The position numbers and the translations under genes were made by a program. From the IMG/VR virus record IMGVR_UViG_2660238269_000008: DNA of 43,719 nt; one strand, given 5' to 3'. Under the pieces are notes generated by a model. It was not told the origin of the DNA and did no database searches. It saw only the letters and a list, made by a program, of their open reading frames with translations. Each line of letters begins with the position of its first letter. The stretch's first letter is position 1. Positions 18,131 to 43,719 of the stretch are shown in pieces. Origin of the DNA: a virus. Taxonomy: Duplodnaviria > Heunggongvirae > Uroviricota > Caudoviricetes.

Positions 18131-18139
18131 TATCACATA

Positions 18140-24757: not shown

Positions 24758-24761
24758 GCTG

Positions 24762-25759: not shown

Positions 25760-25782
25760 TATTTTTGTTATTCGGAGAATGC

Positions 25783-26007
25783 ATGAAGAAATTACTGGTA
25801 ACCGTAAAGCCTTTTCAGGGAACAATTCCGTTCCGTATTTTGCAGCGTGGTCGTGTTCTTGTTGAAGGTTCGTTCAGTGGTAAATGTACGCAATTACACT
25901 CCCGGACCTTTCAGGTGAATGCCACGAATGAAGAGCTAACCGTTGAGTATACGATGAATGCCGCTAAATTCCGCATGGTATCCGCTGCATTACAGCCAGT
26001 GTGTTGA
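25783..26007 (+). CDS. Small hypothetical protein (74 aa) after the lysis cassette
   Basis: ATG at 25783 with GGAGAA upstream; within ORF 25765..26007. Confidence 0.4.
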   Translation: MKKLLVTVKPFQGTIPFRILQRGRVLVEGSFSGKCTQLHSRTFQVNATNEELTVEYTMNAAKFRMVSAALQPVC

Positions 26008-26254
26008 GCGACCTTATTATTCATGCGCGGTATTGTCGCCGTATTCCTGCATTAACAGAGACCGCAGCCCGACCGGGAGACTCCTCTGCGCGAGTGTGCG
26101 GGGATAATCAAAAACGATACACACCGGGGTTTACCGCGTTAACGGAGCGCGGCGTTGTCCCCTCATGGTCGCTGGTCCGGTGCGATGGTGGAAGAAACTG
26201 GATTTTGTTGCAACTGATAACCATTATCATTTTCGCGGGTCCTTTCCGGCGATC

Positions 26255-26290
26255 CGGGCCGTTACGGGGCGGCGACCTCGCGCGTTTTCA
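26255..26290. other. cos: cos site (cosN) with lambda-type cohesive-end sequence
   Basis: GGGCGGCGACCT at 26266..26277 followed by CGCGTTTTCACTATTTATGAAAATTTTC, matching the lambda cos region as recalled; upstream of nu1. Confidence 0.8.
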
Positions 26291-26452
26291 CTATTTATGA
26301 AAATTTTCTGGGGAAAATCATGTCGGTACTGATTATATGTAATGTATTGTTTTTAAACGGTACGTAAGAAAAAAGGACCGTCACAGGTGCGTGGAAGAAA
26401 GGCATTTTCAGGCCGTTTTGTGTCGTAACTGATTTTTGAATGAGGTTGTTGT

Positions 26453-27001
26453 ATGAATGTTAACAAAAAGAACCTTGCGGAAATGTTTAATGTTGATCCG
26501 CGTACAATTGAACGCTGGCAAACTCAGGGGCTCCCTCAGATATCTGGTGGAGGAAAAGGTATTGAGATCATTTTTGATTCTGCGAAGGCGATCGAATGGT
26601 ATGCGCAGCGTGAAGCCGATATTGAAAACGAAAAACTCCGTAAAGAGGTCGAAGATTTGAGAGCTGCCAGCGAGACTGACCTTCAGCCTGGTACCATTGA
26701 TTACGAACGTTACCGACTGACGAAGGCACAGGCAGATGCACAGGAACTGAAAAATGCCCGCGACAGTGGGCAGGTGATTGATACTGGTTTTTGTATGTAT
26801 GCACTGGCGCGTCTTGCGCAGGACATTTCCGGTATTCTTGACAGTATTCCACTGTATATGCAGAGACAATTCCCTGAATTTCCCCCTTCCGCCCTTGAGT
26901 TTTTGAAATCGGAGATAGCAAAAGCATCTAACAAGTGTGCGGATACTGCAGATGGGTTACCAGATATGCTTGCAGACTACATTAGAGAGTCAAATTCATA
27001 A
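26453..27001 (+). CDS. nu1: Terminase small subunit Nu1
   Basis: [28 protein letters not shown]... closely matches lambda Nu1. Confidence 0.95.
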
Positions 27002-28901
27002 GTTTGTTTTTCCATTCCGGGCTGGGTTAAAGGGGATGATTCGGCCATTGCCTGTGACGCCAGTTGAGTGGGCTGACAGACATTATTATCTACCACCAGA
27101 GTCTTCGTATCTTGCTGGTCGCTGGGAAACTCTGCCATTTCAGATGGCAATAATGAACTGCATGGGGAATGACAGGATCCGCACGGTTAATCTGATTAAA
27201 TCTGCCCGTGTTGGTTATACAAAGATGTTACTGGGCGTGGTCGGGTATTTTATCGAGCATAAAAGCCGTAACACTTTATTGTTCCAACCGACAGATTCAT
27301 CTGCTGAAGATTTTATGAAATCTCACGTGGAGTCAACGTTACGGGATGTCCCTTGTCTGAAAATTCTTTCCCCTTGGCTGGGACGTAAGCACCGGGATAA
27401 CACGCTGACATTAAAAAGATTCACCTCTCGTGTGGGGTTCTGGTGCCTGGGCGGTGCAGCCGCCAAAAACTACCGTGAAAAATCCGTGGACGTGGTCTGC
27501 TATGACGAACTTTCCTCGTTCGAGCCGGATGTTGAAAAAGAGGGCTCGCCAACCCTGCTGGGGGATAAGCGTATTGAGGGCTCGGTATGGCCAAAATCCA
27601 TTCGCGGCTCGACGCCTAAAATAAAAGGTTCCTGCCAGATCGAAAAAGCGGCCAACGAGTCGGCGCATTTCATGCGTTTTTATGTGCCCTGCCCGCACTG
27701 TGGGGAGGCGCAGTATCTGAAATTTGGCGATGAGTCCACGCCTTTTGGCCTTAAATGGGAGAAGGACAGCCCCGAAAGCGTTTTCTACCTCTGTGAACAT
27801 CATGGCTGCGTGATCCATCAGTCTGAGCTTGACCAGAGCAACGGGCGGTGGATCTGTGAAAACACGGGGATGTGGACCCGTGACGGTCTGACGTTTTTCA
27901 GCGCTGCGGGTAATGAAATTCCACCGCCGCGCTCCATCACATTCCATATCTGGACGGCGTACAGTCCGTTCACCACCTGGGTACAGATAGTCTATGACTG
28001 GCTGGATGCACTGAAAGATCCCAACGGCCTGAAAACTTTTGTGAACACCACGCTGGGCGAGACCTGGGAAGAGGCCGTGGGCGAAAAACTCGATCACCAG
28101 GTACTGATGGATAAGGTTGTGCGTTACACGGCGGCGGTGCCTGCCCGGGTGGTTTATCTGACGGCGGGCATTGACTCGCAGCGAAACCGTTTTGAGATGT
28201 ATGTCTGGGGATGGGCTCCGGGAGAGGAAGCCTTTCTGGTGGATAAAATCATCATTATGGGACGTCCAGATGAGGAAGAGACGCTGTTACGTGTGGATGC
28301 GGCGATCAACAAAAAATATCGCCATGCGGATGGCACCGAAATGACCATTTCCCGTGTCTGCTGGGACACCGGGGGGATCGATGGCGAAATCGTTTATCAG
28401 AGATCAAAAAAACACGGTGTTTTCCGTGTGCTGCCGGTAAAAGGCGCGTCTGTCTATGGCAAGCCGGTGATCACCATGCCAAAAACCCGCAATCAGCGGG
28501 GCGTGTATCTGTGTGAAGTGGGGACGGACACCGCAAAAGAAATTCTCTATGCCCGTATGAAAGCCGATCCCACGCCTGCGGATGAAGCCACGTCGTATGC
28601 CATCCGTTTTCCTGATGATCCGGAGGTTTTTTCGCAGACAGAGGCGCAGCAACTGGTGGCGGAAGAGCTGGTGGAGAAGTGGGAAAAAGGAAAGATGCGT
28701 CTGCTGTGGGATAACAAAAAGCGGCGTAACGAAGCGCTGGACTGCCTGGTGTATGCCTACGCGGCATTACGTGTGTCCGTGCAACGCTGGCAGCTTGATC
28801 TGGCTGTACTGGCAAAATCCCGGGAAGAAGAGACGACCCGGCCAACCCTGAAAGAACTGGCAGCGAAGCTGTCCGGAGGAGTGAATGGTTACAGTCGCTG
28901 A
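26937..28901 (+). CDS. A: Terminase large subunit A
   Basis: Lambda gpA-like throughout ([18 protein letters not shown], ATPase and nuclease regions); exact start codon uncertain (26937 or 26952). Confidence 0.95.
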
Positions 28902-29091
28902 ACTGCAGGCGCTGCGTCAGGCGCGCCTTGATTTATTAACCGGTAAACGGGTGGTGTCTGTCCAGAAAGATGGTCGCAGAATTGAATATACGGCGGCTTC
29001 TCTGGATGAGCTTAACCGTGCGATCAATGATGCGGAGTCGGTACTGGGGACAACCCGACGTCGCCGTCGTCCGCTGGGAGTGAGGTTATGA
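28885..29091 (+). CDS. W: Head-tail joining protein W
   Basis: LTGKRVVSVQKDGRRIEYTAASL matches lambda gpW. Confidence 0.9.
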   Translation: MVTVAELQALRQARLDLLTGKRVVSVQKDGRRIEYTAASLDELNRAINDAESVLGTTRRRRRPLGVRL

Positions 29092-30680
29092 AACGAACGC
29101 CTGTCCTGATTGATGTGAACGGCGTTCCGCTTCGGGAGAGCCTCAGCTACCACGGGGGCGGTGCAGGATTTGGCGGGCAAATGGCGGAGTGGTTGCCACC
29201 GGCGCAGAGTGCCGATGCGGCCCTGCTGCCCGCGTTGCGTCTGGGGAATGCCCGTGCAGATGATCTGGTGCGCAATAACGGGATAGCGGCTAATGCGGTG
29301 GCCCTGCATAAGGATCATATTGTCGGGCATATGTTTCTGATCAGCTACCGTCCGAACTGGCGCTGGCTGGGGATGCGGGAGACTGCGGCAAAAAGTTTTG
29401 TCGATGAGGTGGAGGCGGCCTGGTCGGAATACGCAGAAGGGATGTTTGGCGAGATCGACGTGGAAGGGAAACGCACGTTTACGGAATTTATCCGTGAAGG
29501 TGTGGGCGTTCATGCCTTTAACGGCGAAATCTTTGTGCAGCCGGTCTGGGATACGGAGAGCACGCAGCTGTTTCGTACGCGTTTTAAAGCCGTGAGTCCG
29601 AAACGGGTGGACACGCCAGGGCACGGTATGGGGAACCGCTTTCTGCGGGCCGGTGTGGAGGTTGATCGATATGGCCGTGCCGTTGCGTACCATATCTGTG
29701 AGGATGATTTTCCGTTCTCTGGTAGTGGACGATGGGAACGGATCCCGCGTGAACTTCCCACCGGGCGTCCGGCCATGCTGCATATTTTCGAGCCGGTGGA
29801 GGACGGGCAGACCCGTGGGGCCAATCAGTTTTACAGCGTCATGGAACGGCTGAAGATGCTCGATTCCCTGCAGGCAACACAGCTTCAGTCGGCCATTGTT
29901 AAAGCCATGTATGCAGCGACGATTGAAAGTGAACTTGATACCGAAAAGGCCTTTGAATATATCGCGGGGGCACCGCAGGGTCAGCAGGATAATCCGCTTA
30001 TTAATATTCTGGAGAAGTTCTCCAGCTGGTATGACACGAATCATGTGACGCTGGGCGGTGTCAAAATTCCGCACCTTTTCCCCGGTGATGATCTGAAACT
30101 GCAGACCGCGCAGGATTCAGACAATGGATTTTCGGCGCTTGAACAGGCGCTGCTGCGGTATATCGCCGCCGGTCTTGGCGTTTCCTACGAACAGTTGTCC
30201 CGTGATTACTCGAAGGTCAGTTATTCAAGTGCCCGCGCCTCTGCCAATGAGTCGTGGCGCTATTTTATGGGACGACGAAAATTTATTGCGGCCCGGCTGG
30301 CCACGCAGATGTTTTCCTGCTGGCTGGAAGAGGCACTTCTTCGGGGGATTATCCGTCCGCCACGGGCACGTTTTGATTTTTATCAGGCGCGATCAGCCTG
30401 GTCACGGGCCGAGTGGATTGGTGCCGGAAGAATGGCCATTGACGGGCTCAAGGAGGTCCAGGAATCGGTGATGCGTATTGATTCCGGACTGAGCACGTAT
30501 GAGAAAGAGCTGGCGCTGATGGGTGAGGATTATCAGGACATTTTCCGCCAGCAGGTCAGGGAATCCGCAGAGCGGGAAAAAGCCGGACTCTCACGTCCGG
30601 TGTGGATAGCGCAGGCGTATCAGCAGCAGATAGCGGAGAGCCGCAGGCCGGAAGAGGAGACAACACCACGTGAGACGTAA
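29088..30680 (+). CDS. B: Portal protein B
   Basis: 530 aa; position and size as lambda gpB. Confidence 0.9.
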   Translation: MKRTPVLIDVNGVPLRESLSYHGGGAGFGGQMAEWLPPAQSADAALLPALRLGNARADDLVRNNGIAANAVALHKDHIVGHMFLISYRPNWRWLGMRETAAKSFVDEVEAAWSEYAEGMFGEIDVEGKRTFTEFIREGVGVHAFNGEIFVQPVWDTESTQLFRTRFKAVSPKRVDTPGHGMGNRFLRAGVEVDRYGRAVAYHICEDDFPFSGSGRWERIPRELPTGRPAMLHIFEPVEDGQTRGANQFYSVMERLKMLDSLQATQLQSAIVKAMYAATIESELDTEKAFEYIAGAPQGQQDNPLINILEKFSSWYDTNHVTLGGVKIPHLFPGDDLKLQTAQDSDNGFSALEQALLRYIAAGLGVSYEQLSRDYSKVSYSSARASANESWRYFMGRRKFIAARLATQMFSCWLEEALLRGIIRPPRARFDFYQARSAWSRAEWIGAGRMAIDGLKEVQESVMRIDSGLSTYEKELALMGEDYQDIFRQQVRESAEREKAGLSRPVWIAQAYQQQIAESRRPEEETTPRET

Positions 30681-32175
30681 TCTTTCACACATTATTGCCG
30701 CAGCATTCAATGAACCGCTGCTTCTGGAGCCCGCCTATGCGCGGGTTTTCTTTTGCGCGCTGGGGCGCGAGATGGGGGCAGCAAGTCTTTCGGTACCACA
30801 ACAGCAGGTACAGCTTGATGCTCCCGGAATGCTGGCTGAAACGGATGAGTTCATGACCGGAGATAAACGACCGGCCCGTGTTTACCGGGTGGTGAACGGT
30901 ATTGCTGTACTGCCGGTGACCGGCACGCTGGTGCACCGGCTGGGTGGCATGCGGCCATTTTCCGGAATGACAGGCTATGACGGCATTGTTGCCTGTCTTC
31001 AGCAGGCAATGGCGGACACCTCTGTCCGGGGCGTACTGCTGGATATTGACAGTCCGGGCGGGCAGGCCGCCGGTGCGTTTGACTGCGCTGACATGATTTA
31101 CCGCCTCCGGCAGCAGAAGCCGGTCTGGGCACTGTGTAATGACACGGCCTGTTCTGCGGCCATGCTGCTGGCGTCGGCCTGCTCCCGACGGCTGGTTACC
31201 CAGACATCCCGTATCGGCTCCATTGGCGTGATGATGGGCCATGTCAGCTATGCCGGTCATCTGGCGCAGGCCGGAGTGGATATCACGCTGATTTATGCCG
31301 GGGCGCATAAGGTGGATGGCAATCAGTTTGAAGCGTTGCCGTCAGAGGTTCGCCAGGACATGCAGCAGCGGATTGATGCGGCGCACCGGATGTTTGCCGA
31401 AAAAGTGGCGATGTATACGGGGCTGTCTGTGGAAGCTGTCACGGGGACAGAGGCTGCCGTTTTTGAAGGTCAGTCCGGTATTGAGGCCGGGCTGGCGGAT
31501 GAATTAATCAATGCGTCGGATGCCATCAGCGTGATGGCTGCGGCGCTGAACACACATGATACAGGAGGCACTATGCCGCAATTAACTGCAACGGAAGCCG
31601 CCGCGCAGGAGAACCAGCGAGTGATGGGGATCCTGACGTGTCAGGAAGCGAAAGGACGTGAACAGCTTGCCACGATGCTGGCAGGACAACAGGGCATGAG
31701 CGTTGAACAGGCCCGGGCGATTCTGGCCGCGGCAGCACCGCAGCAGCCGGTGGCATCCGCGCAGAGTGAAGCCGATCGCATTATGGCGTGTGAAGAAGCT
31801 AAAGGTCGTGAACAACTGGCGGCAACGCTGGCGGCGATGCTGGATATGACGGTGGAAAAAGCCCGCCCGATCCTGGCGGCTGCACCACTGGCGGATGCCG
31901 GACCCTCACTCCGTGATCAGATTATGGCTCTGGATGAGGCAAAAGGGGCTGAGGCGCAGGCTGAAAAACTGGCGGCGTTTCCCGGAATGACGGTGGAGGC
32001 TGCCCGCGACATTCTGTCCTCATCGCCGGATAAAGCAGAACCGGTTTCTGCATCCACAACCGCCCTGTTTGAACGGTTCATGGCGAACCATTCACCGGCA
32101 GCCGTGCAGGGTGGCGTGTCACAGACGTCGGCAGACGGTGATGCGGACGTGAAAATGCTCATGGCCATGCCATGA
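30670..32175 (+). CDS. C: Prohead protease C (ClpP/S49-like) with C-terminal scaffold (Nu3-like) region containing three tandem ~40-aa repeats
   Basis: N-terminal 300 aa S49-like; C-terminal repeats ..EAKGREQLA..; lambda Nu3 is nested in-frame in C. Confidence 0.85.
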   Translation: MRRNLSHIIAAAFNEPLLLEPAYARVFFCALGREMGAASLSVPQQQVQLDAPGMLAETDEFMTGDKRPARVYRVVNGIAVLPVTGTLVHRLGGMRPFSGMTGYDGIVACLQQAMADTSVRGVLLDIDSPGGQAAGAFDCADMIYRLRQQKPVWALCNDTACSAAMLLASACSRRLVTQTSRIGSIGVMMGHVSYAGHLAQAGVDITLIYAGAHKVDGNQFEALPSEVRQDMQQRIDAAHRMFAEKVAMYTGLSVEAVTGTEAAVFEGQSGIEAGLADELINASDAISVMAAALNTHDTGGTMPQLTATEAAAQENQRVMGILTCQEAKGREQLATMLAGQQGMSVEQARAILAAAAPQQPVASAQSEADRIMACEEAKGREQLAATLAAMLDMTVEKARPILAAAPLADAGPSLRDQIMALDEAKGAEAQAEKLAAFPGMTVEAARDILSSSPDKAEPVSASTTALFERFMANHSPAAVQGGVSQTSADGDADVKMLMAMP

Positions 32176-32211
32176 AGTCAGTGCTGACCATCAATATGAG
32201 GTTTTTACAAT

Positions 32212-32559
32212 ATGGTAACGAAAACCATCACTGAACAACGTGCAGAAGTACGTATTTTTGCCGGTAATGATCCGGCTCATACCGCCACAGGCAGCAGCGG
32301 GATTTCTCAGGCAACACCGGCACTGACGCCCCTGATGCTGGATGAAGCCAGCGGGAAACTGGTGGTCTGGGACGGACAGAAAGCCGGTAGTGCGGCTGGC
32401 ATACTGGTACTGCCGCTTGAAGGCACAGAGACGGTGCTGACGTATTACAAGTCGGGGACCTTTGCGACGGAGGCAATCCGCTGGCCTGAAAGTGTGGATG
32501 AACACAAAAAGGCCAACGCCTTTGTCGGCACAGCCCTGAGTCACGCGGCGCTGCCGTAA
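32212..32559 (+). CDS. D: Head decoration protein D
   Basis: DPAHTAT...TPLMLDE...KLVVWDG...YKSGTF matches lambda gpD. Confidence 0.9.
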   Translation: MVTKTITEQRAEVRIFAGNDPAHTATGSSGISQATPALTPLMLDEASGKLVVWDGQKAGSAAGILVLPLEGTETVLTYYKSGTFATEAIRWPESVDEHKKANAFVGTALSHAALP

Positions 32560-32616
32560 CACGTTATCAGGCCACCGCGTTGGCCTGACTGATTTCTGAA
32601 TGAAAGGAACTGATTT

Positions 32617-33645
32617 ATGGGATTGTTTACGACCCGCCAGTTACTCGGTTATACCGAACAAAAAGTGAAATTTCGTGCGCTGTTTCTGGAACTGTTTTTC
32701 CGCCGTACGGTGAATTTCCACACCGAAGAGGTGATGCTGGACAAAATTACCGGAAAAACGCCGGTGGCAGCCTATGTCTCCCCGGTTGTTGAAGGAAAAG
32801 TGCTGCGTCATCGTGGTGGTGAAACCCGCGTGTTGCGTCCGGGCTACGTCAAGCCGAAACACGAATTTAATTACCAGCAGGCGGTGGAGCGCCTTCCCGG
32901 TGAAGATCCGGCGCAACTGAACGACCCGGCCTACCGTCGTCTGCGTATCATCACTGATAACCTCAAACAGGAAGAGCATGCCATTGTCCAGGTGGAGGAA
33001 ATGCAGGCGGTGAATGCCGTGCTGTATGGCAAATACACCATGGAAGGGGAGCAGTTTGATACTGTCGAGGTGGATTTCGGGCGCTCTGAAGGAAATAACA
33101 TTGAGCAGGCTGACGGTAAAAAATGGTCTGAGCAGGACCGTGATACGTTTGATCCGACGCATGATATTGACCTCTACTGCGATCAGGCCAGCGGTCTTGT
33201 GAATATCGCCATTATGGACGGTACGGTCTGGCGTCTGCTGAATGGCTTTAAGCTGTTCCGCGAAAAACTGGATACCCGTCGCGGCTCAAATTCACAACTC
33301 GAAACGGCAGTGAAAGACCTGGGGGCGGTGGTGTCTTTCAAGGGGTATTACGGTGATCTGGCCATTGTGGTGGCGAAAACATCTTATGTGGCAGAGGACG
33401 GTACCGAAAAACGTTATCTGCCGGAGGGCACGCTGGTCCTGGGAAATACGGCTGCTGATGGCATCCGTTGCTATGGTGCCATTCAGGATGCGCAGGCGTT
33501 GTCCGAAGGTGTGGTGGCCTCTTCCCGTTATCCGAAACACTGGCTGACCGTTGGCGATCCGGCCCGTGAATTCACCATGACGCAGTCCGCTCCGCTGATG
33601 GTGCTGCCGGATCCGGATGAGTTTGTGGTGGTTCAGGTGAAATAA
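32617..33645 (+). CDS. E: Major capsid protein E
   Basis: 342 aa; YVSPVVEGKV, PGYVKPKHE, RRGSNSQLETAVKDLG, TGDPAREFTMTQSAPLM match lambda gpE. Confidence 0.95.
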   Translation: MGLFTTRQLLGYTEQKVKFRALFLELFFRRTVNFHTEEVMLDKITGKTPVAAYVSPVVEGKVLRHRGGETRVLRPGYVKPKHEFNYQQAVERLPGEDPAQLNDPAYRRLRIITDNLKQEEHAIVQVEEMQAVNAVLYGKYTMEGEQFDTVEVDFGRSEGNNIEQADGKKWSEQDRDTFDPTHDIDLYCDQASGLVNIAIMDGTVWRLLNGFKLFREKLDTRRGSNSQLETAVKDLGAVVSFKGYYGDLAIVVAKTSYVAEDGTEKRYLPEGTLVLGNTAADGIRCYGAIQDAQALSEGVVASSRYPKHWLTVGDPAREFTMTQSAPLMVLPDPDEFVVVQVK

Positions 33646-33695
33646 TCCGTGAGCGGGGGCGATATGCCCCGTGTCTTTTTTCACAGAGGGCTGAG

Positions 33696-34079
33696 ATGGC
33701 AACAAAAGAAGAAAATCAGAAACGTCTTCGTGAACTGGCTGGCCTGCTGGGGCGCGAGGCAGATATGTCGGGGAGTGCAGCGGATATTGCTCAACGTGTG
33801 TCTGAGTGGGAAGAGGAGCTTGCTGTTTCCCCGGAAGGCATTATGCACTCTGATGAGAGCGGGTCTGATCAAAATTACACAGACGATGGTGAGCAGTTGA
33901 ACAACACTGATGCTCCGGATGATGTTAAAGCCGTCCGGGTACGGAAGTGCCTGCAAGTGATGGGGTATTGCCCGGAGACAGGTCGTCCCGTTGAGCTGGC
34001 GTTACGGGGTATGCGTGTTCTGGTGCCATCATCACTGGCAACGGCCATGATACAGCACGGAACGGCTGAGTATGCGTGA
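33696..34079 (+). CDS. FI: DNA packaging protein FI
   Basis: Position between E and FII; N-terminal coiled segment like lambda FI. Confidence 0.7.
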   Translation: MATKEENQKRLRELAGLLGREADMSGSAADIAQRVSEWEEELAVSPEGIMHSDESGSDQNYTDDGEQLNNTDAPDDVKAVRVRKCLQVMGYCPETGRPVELALRGMRVLVPSSLATAMIQHGTAEYA

Positions 34080-34425
34080 TTTTCAGAATGCCTTTGATGC
34101 CGCCCTTGCGGGGGTGGACAGCACGATTGTTGAAGTGATGGGGATCCGTGCGCAGTTCACCTCCGGAGCACAACGTGGCGGTGAAGTTCAGGGGGTTTTT
34201 GACGATCCGGAGTCGCTGGGTTTTGCCGGTGGCGGGGTCCGTATTGAAGGAAGCAGCCCGTCATTATTTGTGCGGACGGATACGGTGCGTGCTGTGCGGC
34301 GTGGTGACACGCTGACCATTAACGGCGAGATATTCTGGGTGGATCGTGTTTCTCCGGATGACGGGGGCAGCTGTTATCTCTGGCTCAACCGTGGGCAACC
34401 ACCCGCTCTTAACCGGCGACGATAA
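34072..34425 (+). CDS. FII: Head-tail connector FII
   Basis: GVFDDPE, VRIEGSSPSLFVRTD, GDTLTI, FWVDRVSPDDGGSC.LWL match lambda FII. Confidence 0.95.
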   Translation: MRDFQNAFDAALAGVDSTIVEVMGIRAQFTSGAQRGGEVQGVFDDPESLGFAGGGVRIEGSSPSLFVRTDTVRAVRRGDTLTINGEIFWVDRVSPDDGGSCYLWLNRGQPPALNRRR

Positions 34426-34440
34426 ACGCAGGGTGAAATT

Positions 34441-35016
34441 ATGGCGATAAAAGGGCTTGATCAGGCGATTGATAATCTGAGCCGGGTTCGTAAAAACGCC
34501 ATTCCGGCGGCTTCAGCAATGACGATTAACCGCGTGGCCACAACGGCGATTAATCAGTCTTCATCACAGGTTGCCCGGGAGACAAAGGTACGCCGGAAAC
34601 TGGTTAAGGAACGGTCCAGACTGAAACGGGCGACGGTCAGAAATCCGAATGCAAAAATTATCGTTAACCGCGGTGATCTCCCAGTGATTAAGCTGGGGAT
34701 CAGAATGCTGGGGCGTCGTCCGAACAGCATACTCAAAGCCGGTCAGCATCGTTATCAGCGGGCATTTATCCAGCGATTAAATAATGGGCGCTGGCATGTT
34801 ATGCAACGTCTTCCCCAGGCCAGATATGAGGAGGGCAATGACGACAAGGGCAGGAAAAAGCGTAATCGCCTTCCCATTCAGGTGGTGAAAATCCCGATGG
34901 CGGCCCCACTGAAACAGGCGTTTGATGAAAACGTTGACCGTATCCGTCGTGAACGCCTGCCCAAAGAACTGGCATATGCGCTGAAACAACAACTGAGGAT
35001 TGCGATAAAACGATGA
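34441..35016 (+). CDS. Z: Tail completion protein Z
   Basis: MAIKGL..A..NLSR, SQVARETKVRRKLVKER.RLKRATV, NGRWHVMQR, RIRRERLPKEL match lambda Z. Confidence 0.95.
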   Translation: MAIKGLDQAIDNLSRVRKNAIPAASAMTINRVATTAINQSSSQVARETKVRRKLVKERSRLKRATVRNPNAKIIVNRGDLPVIKLGIRMLGRRPNSILKAGQHRYQRAFIQRLNNGRWHVMQRLPQARYEEGNDDKGRKKRNRLPIQVVKIPMAAPLKQAFDENVDRIRRERLPKELAYALKQQLRIAIKR

Positions 35017-35408
35017 AACATACTGATATCCGTGCAGCCGTACTGGATGCACTGGAGAAGCATGACACCGGGGCGACGCTGTTTGATGGTCGCCCCGCTG
35101 TTTTTGAGGAGGCGGATTTTCCGGCGGTCGCGGTTTATCTGACGGATGCAGAGTATACCGGTGAAGAGCTGGATGCTGATACCTGGCGGGCCACACTGCA
35201 TATTGAGGTGTTTTTACCGGCACAGGTACCGGATTCAGAGCTTGATCAGTGGATGGAAAGCCGGATTTACCCGGCGATGGCGGAGATCCCTGCACTGGCA
35301 GGCATGATTACCACGATGGTTACGCAGGGCTATGAGTATCGTCGTGATGACGATATGGCATTGTGGAGCTCTGCAGATCTGACTTATTCCATTACATACG
35401 AGATGTGA
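35013..35408 (+). CDS. U: Tail terminator U
   Basis: [40 protein letters not shown] matches lambda U. Confidence 0.95.
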
Positions 35409-35415
35409 GGATGAT

Positions 35416-36165
35416 ATGGCAACACCAAATCCCCTGGCGCCGGTAAAAGGTTCCGGCACCACGCTCTGGGTTTACACCGGTAAGGGCGATGCTTATGCAA
35501 ACCCGCTGTCAGATGATGAGTGGACGCGTCTGGCAAAAATAAAGGATCTGACCCCCGGCGAGATGACGGCGGAATCCTACGACGATAACTATCTGGATGA
35601 TGAGGATGCTGACTGGGTATCCACCGGGCAGGGGCAGAAATCTGCCGGTGACACCAGTTTTACGCTGGCCTGGAAGCCCGGCGAGAAAGGGCAGCGTGAT
35701 TTGATTGCCTGGTTTGACAGCAGTGAGACCCGGGCCTACAAAATCCGCTTCCCGAACGGTACGGTGGATGTGTTCCGTGGCTGGGTGAGCGCCATTGGTA
35801 AAGCGGTGACTGCCAAAGAAGTGATCACCCGTACGGTAAAAATCACCAATATTGGTCGTCCGTCGCTGGCGGAGGATCGGGGAGAAATCACACCGGTCAC
35901 CGGTATTACCGTGACGCCACTAACGGGGAATGTGGCAAAAGGTCAGAGCACCACCCTGACTGTGGCCGTTCAGCCGGAAGGCGCAACGGATAAAACCTTC
36001 CGCGCAACGTCGGCAAATCAGAATTTCGCCACTATTACCGTGAAAGGGAACACGATCACCGTGAAAGGTGTTGCGGCAGGTAAAGCGCAGATCCCTGTTG
36101 TCACCGGCAATGGTGAGTTTGCGGCGGTGGCGGAGATCACCGTCACGGATGGCGCTGCGGGCTGA
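35416..36165 (+). CDS. V: Major tail tube protein V (with C-terminal Ig-like domain)
   Basis: [33 protein letters not shown] matches lambda V. Confidence 0.95.
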
Positions 36166-36181
36166 GGGGAGGAGATCAAGC

Positions 36182-36613
36182 ATGTTCCTGAAAACAGAAC
36201 AATTTGAATATAACGGCGTGTCCGTCACCCTTTCCGAACTGTCTGCGCTACAGCGTATTGAGCATCTTGCCCTCCTGAAACGGCGGGCAGAAGAGGCTGA
36301 AGCCAGCGGCAACCTGCAGGTGAGCGTGGAAGACCTTGTCAGAACCGGGGCGTTTCTGGTGGCGATGTCCCTGTGGCATAACCATCCACAGAAAACGCAG
36401 TCACCGTCAATGAATGAGGCCGTGATGAAGATAGAGCAGGAAGTGCTCACCACCTGGCCTGCCGATGCCATTGCCCGGGCGGAAGAAGTGGTGTTGTGCC
36501 TGTCCGGGATGATCGAAGCTGTTCGTCCGGATACTGATATCACCGAAGTGGCGAAAAATAACGTGCTGACTGATGATGATTTTTCTGCGGGAAAGTCTTC
36601 GACGGCGAGCTGA
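36182..36613 (+). CDS. G: Tail assembly chaperone G
   Basis: Position and size as lambda G; slippery heptamer G GGA AAG at 36589..36595 in the zero frame. Confidence 0.85.
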   Translation: MFLKTEQFEYNGVSVTLSELSALQRIEHLALLKRRAEEAEASGNLQVSVEDLVRTGAFLVAMSLWHNHPQKTQSPSMNEAVMKIEQEVLTTWPADAIARAEEVVLCLSGMIEAVRPDTDITEVAKNNVLTDDDFSAGKSSTAS

Positions 36614-37053
36614 ATTTTGCCCTCAGACTGGCGCGTGAGATGGGGAGACCCGACTGGCGCGCCATGCTTGCCGGGATGACATCCACCGAATATGCCGACT
36701 GGCGACATTTTTACCGCACGCATTATTTTCACGATACCCAGCTGGATATGCATTTTTCCGGGCTGACGTACGCTGTACTCAGCCTTTTTTTTTGCGATCC
36801 GGATATGCATCCCTCTGATTTCAGTCTGCTTGTCCCCCGGCATGAGGAAGCGCAGGTGGAGAGGCAGGATGAGGACAAAATGCTGATGCAGAAAGCGGCA
36901 GGACTTGCCGGAGGCGTCCGGTTCGGTGGGGACGGAGGGCGCGATATTTTATCGTCTGCGGATGTGGCGGATGTCATGGTGGATGATGCCGTATTAATGA
37001 TGGCTTCAGCGGGGATTTCCGGAGGTGTGAGATATGTCCCAGTCGGTTGGTGA
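36589..37053 (+). CDS. T: T portion of the G-T fusion made by programmed -1 frameshift at G GGA AAG
   Basis: ORF 36640..37053 lies in the -1 frame relative to G; canonical lambda-type slippery site. Confidence 0.8.
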   Translation, partial: GKVFDGELNFALRLAREMGRPDWRAMLAGMTSTEYADWRHFYRTHYFHDTQLDMHFSGLTYAVLSLFFCDPDMHPSDFSLLVPRHEEAQVERQDEDKMLMQKAAGLAGGVRFGGDGGRDILSSADVADVMVDDAVLMMASAGISGGVRYVPVGW

Positions 37054-39613
37054 TCTTGTTATTGACCTGAGTCTGGATGCGGTCCGTTTCGATGAGCAGA
37101 TGAGCCGGGTAAGGCGTCATTTTTCCGGACTGGATACCGACGCCAGAAAGACCGCCACTGCCGTTGAGCAGGGGCTGAGCCGCCAGGCGCTGGCTGCACA
37201 AAAAGCCGGGATTTCCGTCGGGCAGTATAAAGCGGCCATGCGAACCCTGCCCGCACAGTTTACGGATATCGCCACGCAGCTTGCCGGTGGTCAGAATCCC
37301 TGGCTTATTCTGCTGCAACAGGGCGGTCAGGTGAAAGACTCGTTCGGTGGTCTTATCCCGATGTTCCGGGGACTGGCGGGAGCCGTCTCGCTACCTGCCG
37401 TCGGGATCACATCACTGGTCGCCGCGACAGGTGCGCTGGCGTATGCCTGGTACCAGGGGGATTCCACGCTTTCAGCGTTTAATAAAACCCTGGTTCTTTC
37501 CGGTAATCAGTCAGGACTGACGGCAGAGCGCATGTTGACGCTCTCCAGAGCCGGGCAGGCGGCAGGGCTGACGTTTAACCAGGCGGGAGAGTCACTGGCA
37601 GCCCTGGTCAGTGCCGGTGTGCGTGGTGGTGAACAGTTTGATGCCATTAACCAGAGTGTCGCGCGTTTTGCGTCTGCCTCCGGTGTGGAGGTGGACAAGG
37701 TTGCAGAGGCTTTCGGAAAACTGACCACCGACCCGACGTCGGGGCTGACTGCGATGGCACGCCAGTTCCGTAACGTGACGGCGGAGCAGATTGCGTATGT
37801 TGCACAGCTGCAGCGTTCCGGAGACGAGGCCGGTGCCTTACAGGCGGCGAACGATATTGCCACGAAAGGCTTTGATGACCAGACCCGCCGCCTGAAAGAG
37901 AACATGGGGATGCTGGAAACCTGGGCGGATAAAACAGGGAAGGCGTTCAAATCGATGTGGGATGCCATTCTGGATATCGGTCGTCCGGAATCCTCAGCGG
38001 ATATGCTTGCCAGTGCGCAGAAGGCATTTGATGAGGCGGATAAAAAATGGCAGTGGTACCAGAGCCGGAGCCAGCGCCGCGGTAAAACCTCCTCTTTCCG
38101 GGCCAACCTTCAGGGTGCATGGGATGACCGGGAAAATGCCCGTCTGGGGCTGGCGGCGGCAACGCTGCAGTCGGATATGGAAAAAGCCGGTGAACTGGCG
38201 GCAAGGGACAGGGCTGAGCGTGAGGCGTCACAGCTGAAGTATACCGGAGAGGCGCAGAAAGCGTATGAACGCCTGCTGTCGCCGCTGGAGAAATATACCG
38301 CCCGTCAGGAAGAACTGAACAGGGCCCTGAGAGACGGGAAAATCCTGCAGGCGGATTACAACACGCTGATGGCGTCGGCGAAAAAGGATTATGAAGCGAC
38401 GCTGAAAAAACCGAAGTCGTCAGGTGTGAAGGTGTCTGCCGGTGAGCGCCAGGAAGACCGGGCACATGCAGCCATGCTGGCGCTTGAAACCGAGCTCCGG
38501 ACGCTGGAGAAGCACAGTGGTGCGAATGAGAAAATCAGCCAGCAGCGCCGGGATTTGTGGAAGGCGGAAAGTCAGTATGCGGTCCTGAAAGAGGCCGCCA
38601 CGAAACGGCAGTTATCCGGGCAGGAAAAATCCCTGCTGGCTCATGAGAAAGAGACGCTGGAGTACAAACGCCAGCTGGCTGAGCTGGGTGACAAGGTGGA
38701 GCACCAGAAACGCCTGAATGAGCTGGCACAGCAGGCGGTGCGGTTTGAAGAGCAGCAGAGCGCGAAGCAGGCCGCCATCAGCGCAAAAGCCCGCGGTCTC
38801 ACTGACCGTCAGGCGCAGCGGGAGTCTGAAGCGCAGCGTCTTCGTGACGTGTACGGTGATAATCCGCAGGCGCTGGCCCGGGGCACCGGGGCACTGAAAC
38901 AGACATGGGCGGATGAAGACATGCTGCGCGGTGACTGGCTGGCCGGGCTGAAGTCCGGCTGGGGCGAGTGGGCGGAAAGTGCGACGGACAGTTTTTCGCA
39001 GGTTAAAAGTGCAGCCACGCAGACCTTTGATGGTATTGCACAGAATATGGCGGCGATGCTGACCGGCAGTGAGCAGAACTGGCGCAGCTTCACCCGTTCC
39101 GTGCTGTCCATGATGACAGAAATTCTGCTTAAGCAGGCAATGGTGGGGATTGTCGGGAGTATCGGCAGCGCCATTGGTGGGGCTGTTGGTGGCGGCGCAT
39201 CCGCGTCAGGCGGTACAGCCATTCAGGCCGCTGCGGCGAACTTTCATTTTGCGACCGGCGGATTTACGGGCACGGGCGGCAAATATGAGCCTGCGGGGAT
39301 AGTTCACCGCGGGGAGTTTGTTTTCACGAAAGAGGCAACCAGCCGGATAGGTGTGGGGAATCTTTACCGTCTGATGCGCGGCTATGCGGAAGGTGGTTAT
39401 GTGGGTGGTGCCGGAAGTCCGGCGCAGATGCGGCGGGCGGAAGGTATTAATTTTAATCAGAACAATCACGTGGTGATTCAGAACGACGGTATAAACGGAC
39501 AGGCGGGGCCGCAGCTGATGAAGGCGGTGTATGACATGGCCCGTAAGGGGGCGCAGGATGAACTCCGGCTGCAGTTGCGTGATGGCGGTATGTTATCAGG
39601 GAGCGGGCGATGA
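37034..39613 (+). CDS. H: Tape measure protein H
   Basis: 859-aa ORF of the size and position of lambda gpH (853 aa). Confidence 0.9.
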   Translation: MSQSVGDLVIDLSLDAVRFDEQMSRVRRHFSGLDTDARKTATAVEQGLSRQALAAQKAGISVGQYKAAMRTLPAQFTDIATQLAGGQNPWLILLQQGGQVKDSFGGLIPMFRGLAGAVSLPAVGITSLVAATGALAYAWYQGDSTLSAFNKTLVLSGNQSGLTAERMLTLSRAGQAAGLTFNQAGESLAALVSAGVRGGEQFDAINQSVARFASASGVEVDKVAEAFGKLTTDPTSGLTAMARQFRNVTAEQIAYVAQLQRSGDEAGALQAANDIATKGFDDQTRRLKENMGMLETWADKTGKAFKSMWDAILDIGRPESSADMLASAQKAFDEADKKWQWYQSRSQRRGKTSSFRANLQGAWDDRENARLGLAAATLQSDMEKAGELAARDRAEREASQLKYTGEAQKAYERLLSPLEKYTARQEELNRALRDGKILQADYNTLMASAKKDYEATLKKPKSSGVKVSAGERQEDRAHAAMLALETELRTLEKHSGANEKISQQRRDLWKAESQYAVLKEAATKRQLSGQEKSLLAHEKETLEYKRQLAELGDKVEHQKRLNELAQQAVRFEEQQSAKQAAISAKARGLTDRQAQRESEAQRLRDVYGDNPQALARGTGALKQTWADEDMLRGDWLAGLKSGWGEWAESATDSFSQVKSAATQTFDGIAQNMAAMLTGSEQNWRSFTRSVLSMMTEILLKQAMVGIVGSIGSAIGGAVGGGASASGGTAIQAAAANFHFATGGFTGTGGKYEPAGIVHRGEFVFTKEATSRIGVGNLYRLMRGYAEGGYVGGAGSPAQMRRAEGINFNQNNHVVIQNDGINGQAGPQLMKAVYDMARKGAQDELRLQLRDGGMLSGSGR

Positions 39614-39939
39614 AAACCTTTCGCTGGAAAGTGAAGCCGGATATGGAGGTGAACTCGCAGCCGTCGGTGCGTGAAGTGCGTTTTGGTGACGGGTACTCAC
39701 AGCGTATGGCGGCAGGGCTGAATGCTGACCTGAAAACATACAGGGTGACGCTTTCCGTGACCCGGGAGGAGGCGCGGCATCTGGAAGCGTTCCTGGCAGA
39801 GCACGGGGGCTGGAAGGCATTTTTGTGGAAGCCACCCTATGCATACCGGCAGATAAAGGTGACCTGTGCCGGGTGGTCTGCGCGGGTCGGGATGTTGCGC
39901 GTTGAGTTCAGCGCGGAGTTTAAGCAGGTGGTGAACTGA
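39610..39939 (+). CDS. M: Tail tip protein M
   Basis: MKTFRWKVKP...VTLSV..EEA..LE.FL.EHGGWK.FLW.PPY..RQIKVTCA.WS.RV.MLRVEFSAEF.QVVN matches lambda M. Confidence 0.95.
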   Translation: MKTFRWKVKPDMEVNSQPSVREVRFGDGYSQRMAAGLNADLKTYRVTLSVTREEARHLEAFLAEHGGWKAFLWKPPYAYRQIKVTCAGWSARVGMLRVEFSAEFKQVVN

Positions 39940-40637
39940 TGCAGGATATTCACGAAGCAAGCCTGAACGAGTCGGTTAAGTCAGAGCAGTCACCGCGGGT
40001 GGTGCTCTGGGAAATCGACCTGACGGTGCAGGGCGGTGAGCGGTATTTTTTCTGCAATGAGCTGAATGAAAAAGGGGAGCCGGTGACCTGGCAGGGGCGT
40101 GAATATCAGGCGTACCCGATTGAGGGCAGCGGCTTTGAGATGAACGGAAAGGGCAGCAGTGCCCGCCCGTCGCTGACGGTGTCCAATCTTTTCGGCCTTG
40201 TCACCGGGATGGCGGAGGATTTGCAGAGCCTGGTGGGTGCCACGGTGGTCCGCCGCCGGGTGTATGCGTGTTTTCTTGATGCGGTGAACTTTGTGGCGGG
40301 GAATCCGGAGGCAGACCCGGAGCAGGAGCTGACGGACCGGTGGGTGGTGGAGCAGTTATCAGCGCTGACGGCCATGACGGCCTCGTTTGTGCTGGCGACA
40401 CCGACGGAGACGGACGGTGCGCTGTTTCCCGGTCGCATCATGCTGGCGAACACCTGTATGTGGGATTACCGGGGCGATGAGTGCGGGTATAACGGTCCGG
40501 CAGTGGCGGATGAGTTCGACAACCCCACCACGGATATCCGGAAGGACAGATGCAGTAAATGCATGCGCGGGTGTGAGATGCGCGGCATGGTGGCTAATTT
40601 CGGCGGTTTCCTTTCCATTAATAAACTTTCGCAGTAA
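39939..40637 (+). CDS. L: Tail tip protein L
   Basis: 232-aa ORF in the lambda L position. Confidence 0.9.
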   Translation: MQDIHEASLNESVKSEQSPRVVLWEIDLTVQGGERYFFCNELNEKGEPVTWQGREYQAYPIEGSGFEMNGKGSSARPSLTVSNLFGLVTGMAEDLQSLVGATVVRRRVYACFLDAVNFVAGNPEADPEQELTDRWVVEQLSALTAMTASFVLATPTETDGALFPGRIMLANTCMWDYRGDECGYNGPAVADEFDNPTTDIRKDRCSKCMRGCEMRGMVANFGGFLSINKLSQ

Positions 40638-40647
40638 ATCCCGTTTT

Positions 40648-41391
40648 ATGACACAGACTGAATCAGCGATTCTGGCGCATGCCCGGCGGTGTGCGCCAGC
40701 GGAGTCGTGCGGCTTCGTGATAAGCACCCCGGAGGGCGAACGGTACCAGCCCTGCGTGAATATCTCCGCAGAGCCGGAGGCGTATTTTCGTATTGCACCG
40801 GAAGACTGGCTGCAGGCACAGATGCAGGGGGAGATTGTGGCGCTGGTCCACAGTCATCCCGGTGGACTGCCCTGGCTGAGCGAGGCGGACCGGCGGCTGC
40901 AGATAAAGAGTGCCCTGCCCTGGTGGCTGGTCTGCCGGGGTGACATTCACCGGTTCCGCTGTGTGCCGCACCTGACCGGACGGCGCTTTGAACACGGTGT
41001 GACGGACTGTTACACCCTGTTCCGGGATGCTTACCATCTGGCGGGGATAACGCTGCCGGATTTTGTGCGTGAGGATGACTGGTGGCGCAACGGTCAGAAC
41101 CTGTACCTGGACAACCTGGCGGAAAACGGCTTTTACCGGGTGTCTCCGTCCCGTGCACAGGCAGGCGATATTCTGCTGTGCTGCTTTGGCGCATCGGTGC
41201 CGAATCATGCCGCCATTTACTGTGGCAACGGTGAACTGCTTCACCATATACCTGAACAACTGAGTAAACGGGAGAGGTATTCAGAGAAATGGCAACGACG
41301 AACGCATTCTGTCTGGCGTCACCGCCACTGGTCCGCATCTGCCTTCACGGGGATTTACAACGATTTGGTCGTCGCATCAGCCTGTATGTGA
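40648..41391 (+). CDS. K: Tail tip assembly protein K (MPN/JAB plus NlpC/P60 domains)
   Basis: MTQTESAILAHARRCAPAESCGFV...HSHPGG... near-identical to lambda K; ATG at 40648. Confidence 0.95.
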   Translation: MTQTESAILAHARRCAPAESCGFVISTPEGERYQPCVNISAEPEAYFRIAPEDWLQAQMQGEIVALVHSHPGGLPWLSEADRRLQIKSALPWWLVCRGDIHRFRCVPHLTGRRFEHGVTDCYTLFRDAYHLAGITLPDFVREDDWWRNGQNLYLDNLAENGFYRVSPSRAQAGDILLCCFGASVPNHAAIYCGNGELLHHIPEQLSKRERYSEKWQRRTHSVWRHRHWSASAFTGIYNDLVVASACM

Positions 41392-41968
41392 ACACGGCAG
41401 CGGAGGCCATCCGTGCCCTGTCGCTGCAGGTGCCGGGATTCCGCTGTCAGATGAACGAAGGCTGGTATCAGATACGTATTGCCGGTGAGGATACCGCGCC
41501 GGAGGCGGTGTATGCCCGTCTTCATGAGCCACTGAGCGGGAGGGCCGTGATTCATATTGTACCGAGGCTGGCAGGGCCGGGGGAAATGGTGTTTTTCAGG
41601 TGGTGCTGGGGGCTGCAGCCATCGTGGGTTCTTTCTTCACCGCCGGTGCAACGATGGCGTTGTGGGGCGCAGCCCTGAGTGCCGGAGGGCTGACTGCCAC
41701 CACGATGCTGTTCTCACTGGGTGCCAGCATGATACTGGGTGGTGTGGCTCAGATGCTGGCCCCGAAGGCAAAGACGCCGGAGTACAAAAGTACGGATAAC
41801 GGTAAACAGAACACGTATTTTTCGTCACTGGACAACATGATTGCCCAGGGTAACCCGATGCCGGTGCCTTACGGTGAAATGCTGGTTGGTTCACGACGGA
41901 TATCCCAGGACATCAGCACCCGTGATGAGGGCGGTGACGGGAAAGTGGTGGTTATCGGGCGGGGATGA
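41289..41968 (+). pseudogene. I: Tail tip assembly protein I, frameshifted in a G5 run (about 41575-41590)
   Basis: ORFs 41289..41678 and 41600..41968 match the N- and C-terminal halves of lambda I in different frames; the switch maps to ccggggg. Confidence 0.75.
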
Positions 41969-42013
41969 AAATAAAAAAATCCCGCAGAGTTAGCGGAGCT
42001 GCGGGAGAGAACG

Positions 42014-42133
42014 ATGAAGATTAACTTTATGGAGTTATTTTTCAGGCATCAAAAAAGTAACGCAGCGTCATTATTGCGGCTACAGGCAATTGCCGGAAAT
42101 GTGAAGAATTTCAGAAATTTTATTCTGTCATGA
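42014..42133 (+). CDS. Candidate small ORF (39 aa) within a 240-bp insert between I and J
   Basis: ATG with GGGAGAG 5 nt upstream; flanked by hairpins at 41979..42004 and 42137..42160 (the latter followed by a T-rich run). Confidence 0.25.
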   Translation: MKINFMELFFRHQKSNAASLLRLQAIAGNVKNFRNFILS

Positions 42134-42208
42134 CACAGGCACCCTCCGGGGTGCCTGTTGTTTTCTGGCATAAACAGATTCAGACATCAGACAGGAGAGG
42201 GGGACAGA

Positions 42209-43719
42209 GTGGGTAAAGGGGGCGGCAAGGGGCACACACCGCGTGAGGCGAAGGACAATCTCAAATCAACGCAGATGATGAGCGTGATTGATGCCATTGG
42301 TGAGGGACCGGTGGAAGGTCCGGTGAAGGGACTGCAGAGTATTCTGGTGAACAAAACCCGCTGACGGACACGGACGGTAATCCCGTGATACACGGTGTGA
42401 CCGCCGTCTGGCGTGCCGGGGAGCAGGAGCAGACACCGCCGGAAGGCTTTGAGTCCTCCGGGCGGAAACCGCACTGGGCGTGGAGGTGACGAAGGCAAAG
42501 CCGGTGACGCGCACCATCACGTCAGCGAACATTGACCGTCTGCGGGTCACCTTCGGGGTGCAGTCACTGGTGGAGACCACCTCAAAGGGTGACCGTAATC
42601 CCTCTTCTGTCCGGCTGCTGATTCAGCTTGAGCGTAACGGTAACTGGGTGACGGAGAAGGATATCACCATTAACGGCAAGACCACCTCGCAGTACCTGAC
42701 GTCGGTGATTCTGAATAATCTCCCTGAGCGCCCCTTTAACATCCGGATGGTCAGGGAGACGGCGGACAGCACCACGGACCAGCTGCAGAACAGAACGCTG
42801 TGGTCGTCATACACCGAAATCATCGATGTGAAACAGTGCTACCCGAACACGGCCATTGTGGGGCTGCAGGTGGATGCGGAGCAGTTTGGTGGCCAGCAGC
42901 TGACGGTGAACTACCATATTCGTGGTCGCATCATTCAGGTGCCGTCAAACTATGACCCGGAAAAACGCACCTACAGCGGTATCTGGGACGGCAGCCTGAA
43001 ACCGGCATACAGCAATAACCCGGCCTGGTGCCTGTGGGACATGCTGACCCACCCGCGCTACGGCATGGGAAAACGCCTGGGGGCGGCGGATGTGGACAAG
43101 TGGGCTCTGTATGCCATCGGGCAGTACTGCGACCAGACGGTCCCGGATGGTTTCGGGGCACAGAGCCGCGGATGACCTTTAATGCGTACCTGTCACAGCA
43201 GCGTAAGGTGTGGGATGTCCTGGGGGATTTCTGCTCGGCGATGCGCTGTATGCCGGTATGGAACGGCCAGACGCTGACGTTCGTTCAGGACCGCCCGTCG
43301 GATGTGGTGTGGCCGTACACCAACAGCGATGTGGTGGTGGATGATAACGGCGTGGGGTTCCGCTACAGCTTCAGTGCCCTGAAGGACCGGCACACGGCGG
43401 TGGAGGTGAATTACACCGACCCGCAGAACGGCTGGCAGACTTCCACGGAACTGGTGGAAGACCGGACGCCATCCTGCGCTACGGGCGCAATCTGCTGAAG
43501 ATGGATGCGTTTGGCTGTACCAGCCGCGGTCAGGCCCACCGTGCCGGACTGTGGGTGATAAAGACCGAACTGCTGGAAACGCAGACGGTGGATTTCACGC
43601 TCGGGTCACAGGGGCTGCGGCACACGCCCGGTGACATCATTGAAATCTGTGATAACGACTATGCCGGGACCCTGACCGGCGACGTATCCTGTCCATCGAT
43701 GCCGCCAGCCGCACACTGA
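42209..43719 (+). pseudogene. J: Central tail fibre / host-specificity protein J, 5' part, with at least four frameshifts; continues beyond the window
   Basis: GTG start (VGKGGGKGHTPREAKDNLKSTQ as lambda J); lambda-J-like sequence jumps frame near 42360, 42460, 43157 and 43462; four successive ORFs in the track. Confidence 0.8.

What the first reader, a model, noticed from the sequence alone, without database searches (positions are those of the whole stretch)
42209..43719. Tail fibre gene J carries at least four frameshifts within 1.5 kb
Lambda-J-like translation jumps frame near 42358-42362 (acccgctg, where accccgctg would keep frame), 42458-42466, 43155-43158 (a G-run) and 43458-43466. The neighbouring genes H, M, L and K are intact. 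Either J is a decayed pseudogene (adsorption-defective particles) or these are homopolymer-type sequencing errors.
Basis: seen in the sequence. Interest (0 to 1): 0.4.

Follow-up and report, generated by a model that had tools for sequence, protein, structure and literature searches.

The report
Assembly errors mimic broken J gene
The frameshifts in the phage tail-tip gene J are really in the sequence, but they are almost certainly single-base consensus errors near the end of a draft-assembly contig, not a decayed gene, so the finding is ordinary.

Summary
All four reported frame jumps are at the stated coordinates. Each is a one-base deletion in a short G or C run.

They are almost certainly not biological.
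- The window matches contig JWSO02000007.1 of E. coli assembly GCA_001188105.2. That contig ends inside J, 733 bases past the window.
- Indels rise from none in the 7.9 kb before gene I to about 15 in the last 2.9 kb of the contig.
- Putting back five bases makes the window's J segment identical, base for base, to the start of an intact 1155-aa J in an independent assembly.
- A second contig of the same assembly carries the same 5.4 kb with no substitution differences. It has full-length runs at five of the six sites and its own, different deletions.
- None of the best matches in 5,426 complete E. coli genomes shares the deletions.

Verdict: these are consensus errors where the contig breaks in a prophage repeat. 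Interest is very low.

The parts
42209..43719 (+). 5' 43% of lambda-type tail tip / host-specificity gene J, as assembled. It is broken by five 1-bp deletions.
   Evidence: The repaired translation matches NCBIfam NF049904.1 lambda_TipJ at profile positions 1-505 of 1163 (E = 0, 1162 bits). The repaired DNA is identical to nt 1-1516 of the intact 1155-aa J in L022.
42357..42359 (+). Deletion site 1 in J: CCC where relatives have CCCC.
   Evidence: Contig 11 of the same assembly and L022, L023 and L024 all have CCCC.
42460..42462 (+). Deletion site 2 in J: GGG where relatives have GGGG.
   Evidence: In one search the best matches, from 28 complete-genome records at 99% identity or more, are otherwise identical and span 223 nt against the query's 221.
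43155..43158 (+). Deletion site 3 in J: GGGG where relatives have GGGGG.
   Evidence: This is the only window site where contig 11 of the same assembly also lacks the base. L022 and L023 have GGGGG.
43462..43463 (+). Deletion site 4 in J: CC where relatives have CCC.
   Evidence: In one search all ten listed best matches span 623 nt against the query's 620.
43681..43681 (+).
   Evidence: It creates the TGA at 43717-43719.
41388..41968 (+). Tail assembly gene I, frameshifted at 41574-41576 (GGG instead of GGGG).
   Evidence: Adding one G gives a protein 100% identical to the I protein encoded at L001:5829-6410, annotated WP_001089952.1.
39005..43719 (+). Stretch (3' end of H, then M, L, K, I and the 5' part of J) that occurs twice in the source assembly. 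Contig 7 and contig 11 have no substitution differences from here to the end of contig 7.
   Evidence: The last substitution between the two contigs is at window 39004. After that they differ only by short indels, nearly all of one base.

Best explanation
The frameshifts are base-calling or consensus errors in a draft assembly, not mutations.

The window is a lambdoid E. coli prophage taken from contig JWSO02000007.1 of GCA_001188105.2. From about window 39005 onward, the tail-tip module (end of H, M, L, K, I, J) is an exact repeat that also lies on a second contig of the same assembly. I infer that this second copy belongs to a second prophage. The assembler could not resolve the repeat, so contig 7 stops inside J. 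In its last 3 kb, where I infer few reads support the consensus, short G/C runs were under-called by one base.

The real gene in this strain is most likely an intact 1155-aa J, identical to the one in GCA_015847895.1.

Shown: the error pattern, the disagreement between the two contigs, and the identity to an intact allele.

Inferred: falling read depth at the contig end, and the sequencing platform. The platform is probably single-molecule long reads, because the contig runs through a 768-bp IS1 and five tandem-like sRNA repeats, and the errors are deletion-biased.
For: 1. The window equals L012 (JWSO02000007.1) at 27034-43719 except for one C-run length at 33666. So homopolymer lengths differ even between two copies of this sequence.
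2. That contig ends 733 bases after the window, inside J.
3. Indels per 500 bases toward the contig end are 0, 0, 0, 0, 0, 1, 2, 0, 2, 6, 6. Nearly all are 1-bp deletions.
4. Window 1572-33665 has no gaps against near-identical prophages in complete genomes.
5. Against L022, an independent assembly with an intact 1155-aa J, the 4,514 bases from L to the contig end have 0 mismatches and 17 gap openings. With five bases restored, the window's J equals L022's J over 1,516 nt.
6. Contig JWSO02000011.1 of the same assembly has 0 substitutions against contig 7 over 5.4 kb. It has the full run at 5 of the 6 window sites and its own deletions elsewhere. Those rise 0, 0, 0, 0, 1, 1, 9, 12, 19 per kb toward the end of the fetched stretch, which stops 1.8 kb short of that contig's end.
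7. A Logan contig from SRR13202286 differs from the window only at the first three deletion sites.
8. The best matches among 5,426 complete genomes all carry the extra bases and an annotated intact gpJ.
9. None of the longer fragment ORFs exists as a called protein among about 15 billion proteins.
10. Homopolymer-associated false deletions are the dominant error of long-read assemblies and are known to fragment genes (PMC12007338).
Against: - No reads or quality values are available, so the error was not observed directly.
- The prophage already carries one real lesion, an IS1 inside int with a 9-bp target duplication. Some decay is therefore plausible a priori.
- At 43155-43158 both contigs of the assembly lack the same G. 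That could be a real change, or a systematic under-call of a G5 run.
- The sequencing platform of this assembly could not be established.
Confidence: 0.95

Rival explanations
1. J, and I, are real pseudogenes. The prophage is cryptic and its tail-tip genes have decayed through successive frameshifts, so any particles would be adsorption-defective.
For: The frameshifts are in the deposited sequence, and no proteins are on record for I and J in the source assembly, whose gene calls stop at K. The prophage integrase is interrupted by IS1, and a T-run in int is one base short. One site (43155) is short in both contigs of the assembly.
Against: - There are 17 indel events and zero substitutions relative to an intact allele over 4.5 kb.
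- The repaired frame has no stop codon in 750 codons.
- The deletions cluster 100-fold at the contig end.
- The second copy in the same assembly has different indels and the same bases otherwise.
- No other genome examined shares the deletions. The one exception is a single site in another contig-end sequence that is also riddled with indels.
Confidence: 0.03
2. The short G/C runs are phase-variable tracts, or the culture was a mixed population, so J switches on and off by slipped-strand mispairing.
For: All six window changes are length changes of G or C runs.
Against: The runs are only 2-5 bases long, far shorter than known contingency tracts (my own knowledge: usually 7 or more). In every best match inspected from the complete genomes, and in three independent assemblies of the same allele, each run has the same full length. 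Six simultaneous 'off' states would be needed.
Confidence: 0.01
3. The frame changes are read through by programmed ribosomal frameshifting, as in the lambda G/GT tail chaperone.
For: Programmed frameshifting does occur in lambdoid tail operons (established knowledge for G/GT).
Against: The homologues, including a nucleotide-identical allele, are in one continuous frame at every site. Five or more consecutive +1 events in one gene are without precedent.
Confidence: 0.002

Closest known systems
Gene-fragmenting homopolymer indel errors in long-read or flow-based draft assemblies
   Same: The changes are single-base, deletion-biased and in homopolymers. They break ORFs into pieces, they are not reproduced in an independent consensus of the same DNA, and they are densest at a contig end that lies in a repeat (the general pattern is described in PMC12007338).
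   Different: The platform and read depth of this assembly are not known to me. One site is in a run of only two bases, and a few deletions beyond the window are not in homopolymers.
Lambda gpJ (tail tip attachment / host specificity protein; NCBIfam NF049904 lambda_TipJ)
   Same: The underlying gene is an ordinary member. It has the gene order H-M-L-K-I-J, and the repaired N-terminal 505 aa align end to end with profile positions 1-505. The full allele in L022 is 1155 aa with the usual J domains.
   Different: As written in the window, the gene is split into five or more ORFs and is cut off by the window end. A 240-bp spacer separates I and J here and in close relatives. From memory, the two genes are adjacent in lambda itself.
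Contig-start J gene in NCTC assembly GCA_900449405.1 (UGCV01000001.1)
   Same: This is another E. coli contig with an end next to J (it begins 125 bases upstream of the gene). Its J is also chopped into small ORFs, with 17 indel columns in the first 1.65 kb. These include the same CCCC-to-CCC change, which gives the identical 51-aa first fragment.
   Different: It is a different J allele (95 substitutions in 1.6 kb), and its indels include many insertions.

Membership tests
Assembly/consensus artefact (homopolymer indel errors at a contig end) | The changes are 1-bp indels in homopolymer runs, mostly deletions. | tested here: met
   All six window sites are 1-bp deletions in G or C runs. Over the contig tail I count roughly 14 deletion events against 2 insertions.
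Assembly/consensus artefact (homopolymer indel errors at a contig end) | Error density rises toward a contig end or a repeat boundary. | tested here: met
   Indels per 500 nt run 0, 0, 0, 0, 0, 1, 2, 0, 2, 6, 6 up to the contig end. Contig 11 shows the same trend. The tail is an intra-assembly repeat from window 39005.
Assembly/consensus artefact (homopolymer indel errors at a contig end) | The changes are not reproduced in an independent consensus of the same DNA. | tested here: met
   Contig 11 of the same assembly has the full run at 5 of 6 sites. L022, L023 and L024 have the full run at every site they cover. The window and L012 disagree on the run at 33666.
Assembly/consensus artefact (homopolymer indel errors at a contig end) | Raw reads contradict the consensus, or depth is low at the sites. 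| not testable with these tools
   No reads or quality values are accessible.
Decayed prophage pseudogene | The lesions are inherited, meaning shared by related genomes carrying the same allele. | tested here: not met
   Assemblies with the nucleotide-identical allele are intact. No best match among 5,426 complete genomes shares the deletions.
Decayed prophage pseudogene | Relaxed selection shows as in-frame stops or an excess of substitutions alongside the indels. | tested here: not met
   There are 0 substitutions against an intact allele. The repaired frame has 0 stops, and against a more distant allele the differing codons are 29 synonymous to 12 non-synonymous.
Lambda TipJ family (NF049904) | Sequence match to the family profile. 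| tested here: met
   The repaired 505 aa score E = 0 and 1162 bits over profile positions 1-505 of 1163. The full-length cutoff of 1950 bits cannot be reached by a 43% fragment.
Lambda TipJ family (NF049904) | Position at the end of the H-M-L-K-I tail module. | tested here: met
   See the gene order.
Phase-variable homopolymer tract | A long tract whose length varies among strains. | tested here: not met
   The runs are 2-5 nt, and their length is the same in all the complete-genome matches and independent assemblies inspected.

The most novel reading that the evidence does not exclude
The deletions are real. Under this reading the strain carries two identical copies of the tail-tip module, and each is being inactivated independently by a process that removes single bases from short G/C runs without causing substitutions, for example a local mutator or repair defect acting on prophage tail genes.
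Probability: 0.02. Interest if true: 0.35.

Novelty: not a real feature. Interest (0 to 1): 0.03.

Why it matters
It matters only as a caution. I and J have no called protein in the source assembly, and a reader or an automated pipeline could score this prophage as tail-defective. The evidence says the gene is intact in the organism.

More generally, clusters of 1-bp homopolymer deletions near contig ends inside prophage repeats should be filtered out before anyone calls pseudogenes or predicts phage viability.

Tried and rejected
- An exact-pattern scan of viral contigs for the deleted version of site 1 found nothing.
- Literature searches for the WGS prefix JWSO found nothing, so the platform and strain remain unknown.
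- I looked up ten candidate fragment proteins by exact sequence. Only the 51-aa J start and a 122-aa I fragment exist.
  - The 51-aa hit led to an NCTC contig with a different J allele, so it is not the source.
  - The 122-aa hits were mostly I genes cut off at contig starts in short-read drafts.
- Looking up the exonuclease to recover the start of the source contig did not return that contig. It did show a JGI contig with the same IS1 insertion.
- I first thought the roughly 20 substitutions that set this J apart from complete genomes might be consensus errors or a chimeric consensus. That is rejected, because three independent assemblies carry exactly these bases.
- Programmed frameshifting and phase variation were considered and rejected (see the rival explanations).
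- I did not run the large protein searches, structure prediction or fold searches. They could not bear on the question of error versus mutation.

Full report
**What is in the sequence.** The end of the window carries the tail module of a lambdoid prophage:
- H at 37034-39613
- M at 39610-39939
- L at 39939-40637
- K at 40648-41391
- I at 41388-41968
- a 240-bp spacer
- J from 42209 to the window end

J is split into ORFs of 51, 40, 231, 156 and 72 aa. I aligned the region with intact prophages in complete E. coli genomes: L001 (CP075632.1), L002, L003, L004 (CP015240.1) and L005 (AP042554.1). The window lacks exactly one base at six places, each in a G or C run:

| Window position | Gene | Window | Relatives |
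|---|---|---|---|
| 41574-41576 | I | GGG | GGGG |
| 42357-42359 | J | CCC | CCCC |
| 42460-42462 | J | GGG | GGGG |
| 43155-43158 | J | GGGG | GGGGG |
| 43462-43463 | J | CC | CCC |
| 43681 | J | G | GG |

It missed the fifth J site and the one in I. H, M, L and K are intact, as it said.

**Where the window comes from.** Window 1572-22000 matches the prophage of strain 2011C-3911 with 3 mismatches and no gaps. Window 22001-39000 has 0-1 substitutions per kb against its nearest relative and one indel. An exact-protein look-up of H found contig JWSO02000007.1 (567,341 bp) of assembly GCA_001188105.2. That contig is identical to the window at 27034-43719, except that it has CCCCC where the window has CCCC at 33666. 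It runs on for only 733 bases beyond the window and then ends, still inside J.

**The indels track the contig end.** Counted per 500 bases toward the contig end, indels relative to intact relatives are 0, 0, 0, 0, 0, 1, 2, 0, 2, 6, 6. Almost all are single-base deletions. Elsewhere in the window I found only two other 1-bp run-length differences: T5 instead of T6 at 512, and the C-run at 33666. The clustering is not chance (binomial P about 4e-7 within the window, 2e-16 for the contig tail).

**The underlying gene is intact and under selection.** With the indels repaired, 750 codons of J contain no stop. Against the J of 2011C-3911, the differing codons are 29 synonymous and 12 non-synonymous, and several of the non-synonymous ones lie in the garbled last 300 bases. 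The repaired 505 aa match NCBIfam lambda_TipJ over profile positions 1-505. Adding one G to I gives a protein identical to the I protein encoded at L001:5829-6410.

**Decisive comparisons.** A look-up of the window's L protein returned contigs that carry the same allele.
- **L022** (GCA_015847895.1, AAXQGZ010000102.1) has an intact I and an intact 1155-aa J. Over the 4,514 bases from L to the end of contig 7 it shows 0 mismatches and 17 gap openings. After five bases (C, G, G, C, G) are put back, the window's J segment is identical to L022's J over all 1,516 nt.
- **L024** (a Logan assembly of SRR13202286) differs from the window only at the first three deletion sites.
- **L023** (an ENA metagenome scaffold) also has the full-length runs.
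- **L020** is a second contig of the same assembly, JWSO02000011.1 (16.3 kb). From window 39005 to the end of contig 7 the two contigs have no substitution differences. Contig 11 nevertheless has the full-length run at five of the six window sites, and its own deletions at other places. Those rise 0, 0, 0, 0, 1, 1, 9, 12, 19 per kb toward the end of the fetched stretch, which stops 1.8 kb short of that contig's end.

So two consensus sequences of the same DNA, within one assembly, disagree only in short indels, nearly all of one base. That is what sequencing error looks like and not what mutation looks like.

**Wider comparison.** For the 221-nt stretch holding two sites, 28 complete-genome records match at 99% identity or more. 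All ten listed matches span 223 nt and are otherwise identical. For the 620-nt stretch holding three sites, all ten listed best matches span 623 nt. All carry an annotated intact gpJ.

Of ten candidate products of the fragment ORFs, only two exist among about 15 billion catalogued proteins.
- The 51-aa J start occurs once, at the start of an NCTC contig (UGCV01000001.1). That contig has a different J allele and is itself riddled with indels in its first 1.65 kb, which is a second instance of the same artefact.
- The 122-aa I fragment comes mostly from I genes cut off by contig starts.

**Mechanism.** The tail-tip module is present twice in the assembly, and I infer that two prophages share it. 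The exact repeat of at least 5.4 kb stopped the assembler inside J. I also infer that the consensus at the contig tail rests on few reads, so G/C runs were under-called. Deletion-biased homopolymer errors that fragment genes are the known main failure of long-read assemblies (PMC12007338). I suspect long reads here because the contig runs through an IS1 copy and several sRNA repeats, but I could not establish the platform.

**Rivals.**
- **Real decay** would need 17 indels and no substitutions, independent and different indel sets in two otherwise identical copies, and clustering at the contig end. I give it about 3%.
- **Phase variation** fails because the runs are 2-5 nt and their length is constant in every match inspected.
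- **Programmed frameshifting** fails because the identical allele elsewhere is in one continuous frame.

**Verdict.** The sequencing-error alternative is right and the pseudogene alternative is wrong. This is not a real biological feature, and interest is very low. Its only value is as a warning against calling prophage pseudogenes at contig ends.

Noticed in passing
window 805-1571 (flanks 796-804 and 1572-1580): A 767-bp IS1 copy sits inside the prophage integrase gene, with a 9-bp target duplication GTAGCTGCA. It is absent from the otherwise identical prophage of strain 2011C-3911. The same insertion is in JGI contig Ga0169236_00003 (L018), but there the far side of the IS1 joins the gltD/gltB region instead of the rest of int. 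That points to an IS1-mediated rearrangement or a mis-join.
   Followed up: partly
window 512: A T-run in the integrase gene is TTTTT where three intact relatives have TTTTTT. It could be another consensus error or a real change in a gene already broken by IS1.
   Followed up: partly
window 33666: An intergenic C-run between the major capsid gene and FI is CCCC in the window but CCCCC in JWSO02000007.1 and in relatives. The window and the fetched contig JWSO02000007.1 therefore differ in one homopolymer length.
   Followed up: yes
window 39005-43719 and L020 (JWSO02000011.1): The source assembly holds a second contig of 16.3 kb with a different tail shaft region (H of 864 aa, a Gifsy-2 family gene). 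From the end of H onward its tail-tip module is identical to the window's. Against 2011C-3911, the window also shows a dense patch of 46 substitutions in 39001-40000. Since contig 11 matches the window only from 39005, this suggests that the tail-tip module was exchanged between prophages. The same 859-aa H protein occurs in NEMG01000095.1.
   Followed up: partly
window 19030-19242 and 21002-21981: Rfam finds five copies of the sRNA family STnc100, four of them in a row just upstream of the SASA-family esterase and lysis genes. That is the position where Stx phages carry stx (from memory), and no stx gene was seen here.
   Followed up: no
window 12267-12441; 18055-18213: There is a sok antitoxin RNA next to a hokD-type gene, and two tRNA genes after the DNA methyltransferase gene. 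A relative annotates the tRNAs as Ile and Arg.
   Followed up: no
window 41969-42208: A 240-bp non-coding spacer lies between I and J and is conserved in close relatives. It has two terminator-like hairpins, one on each strand: 42135-42158 on the plus strand and 41997-41981 on the minus strand. Shuffled sequence gave 0.2 on average. There was no Rfam hit at gathering score.
   Followed up: partly
L006 (UGCV01000001.1, GCA_900449405.1) 1-1650: An NCTC E. coli contig starts 125 bases upstream of a different J allele and has 17 indel columns in its first 1.65 kb. One is the same CCCC-to-CCC change, so its first called protein is identical to the window's 51-aa fragment.
   Followed up: yes
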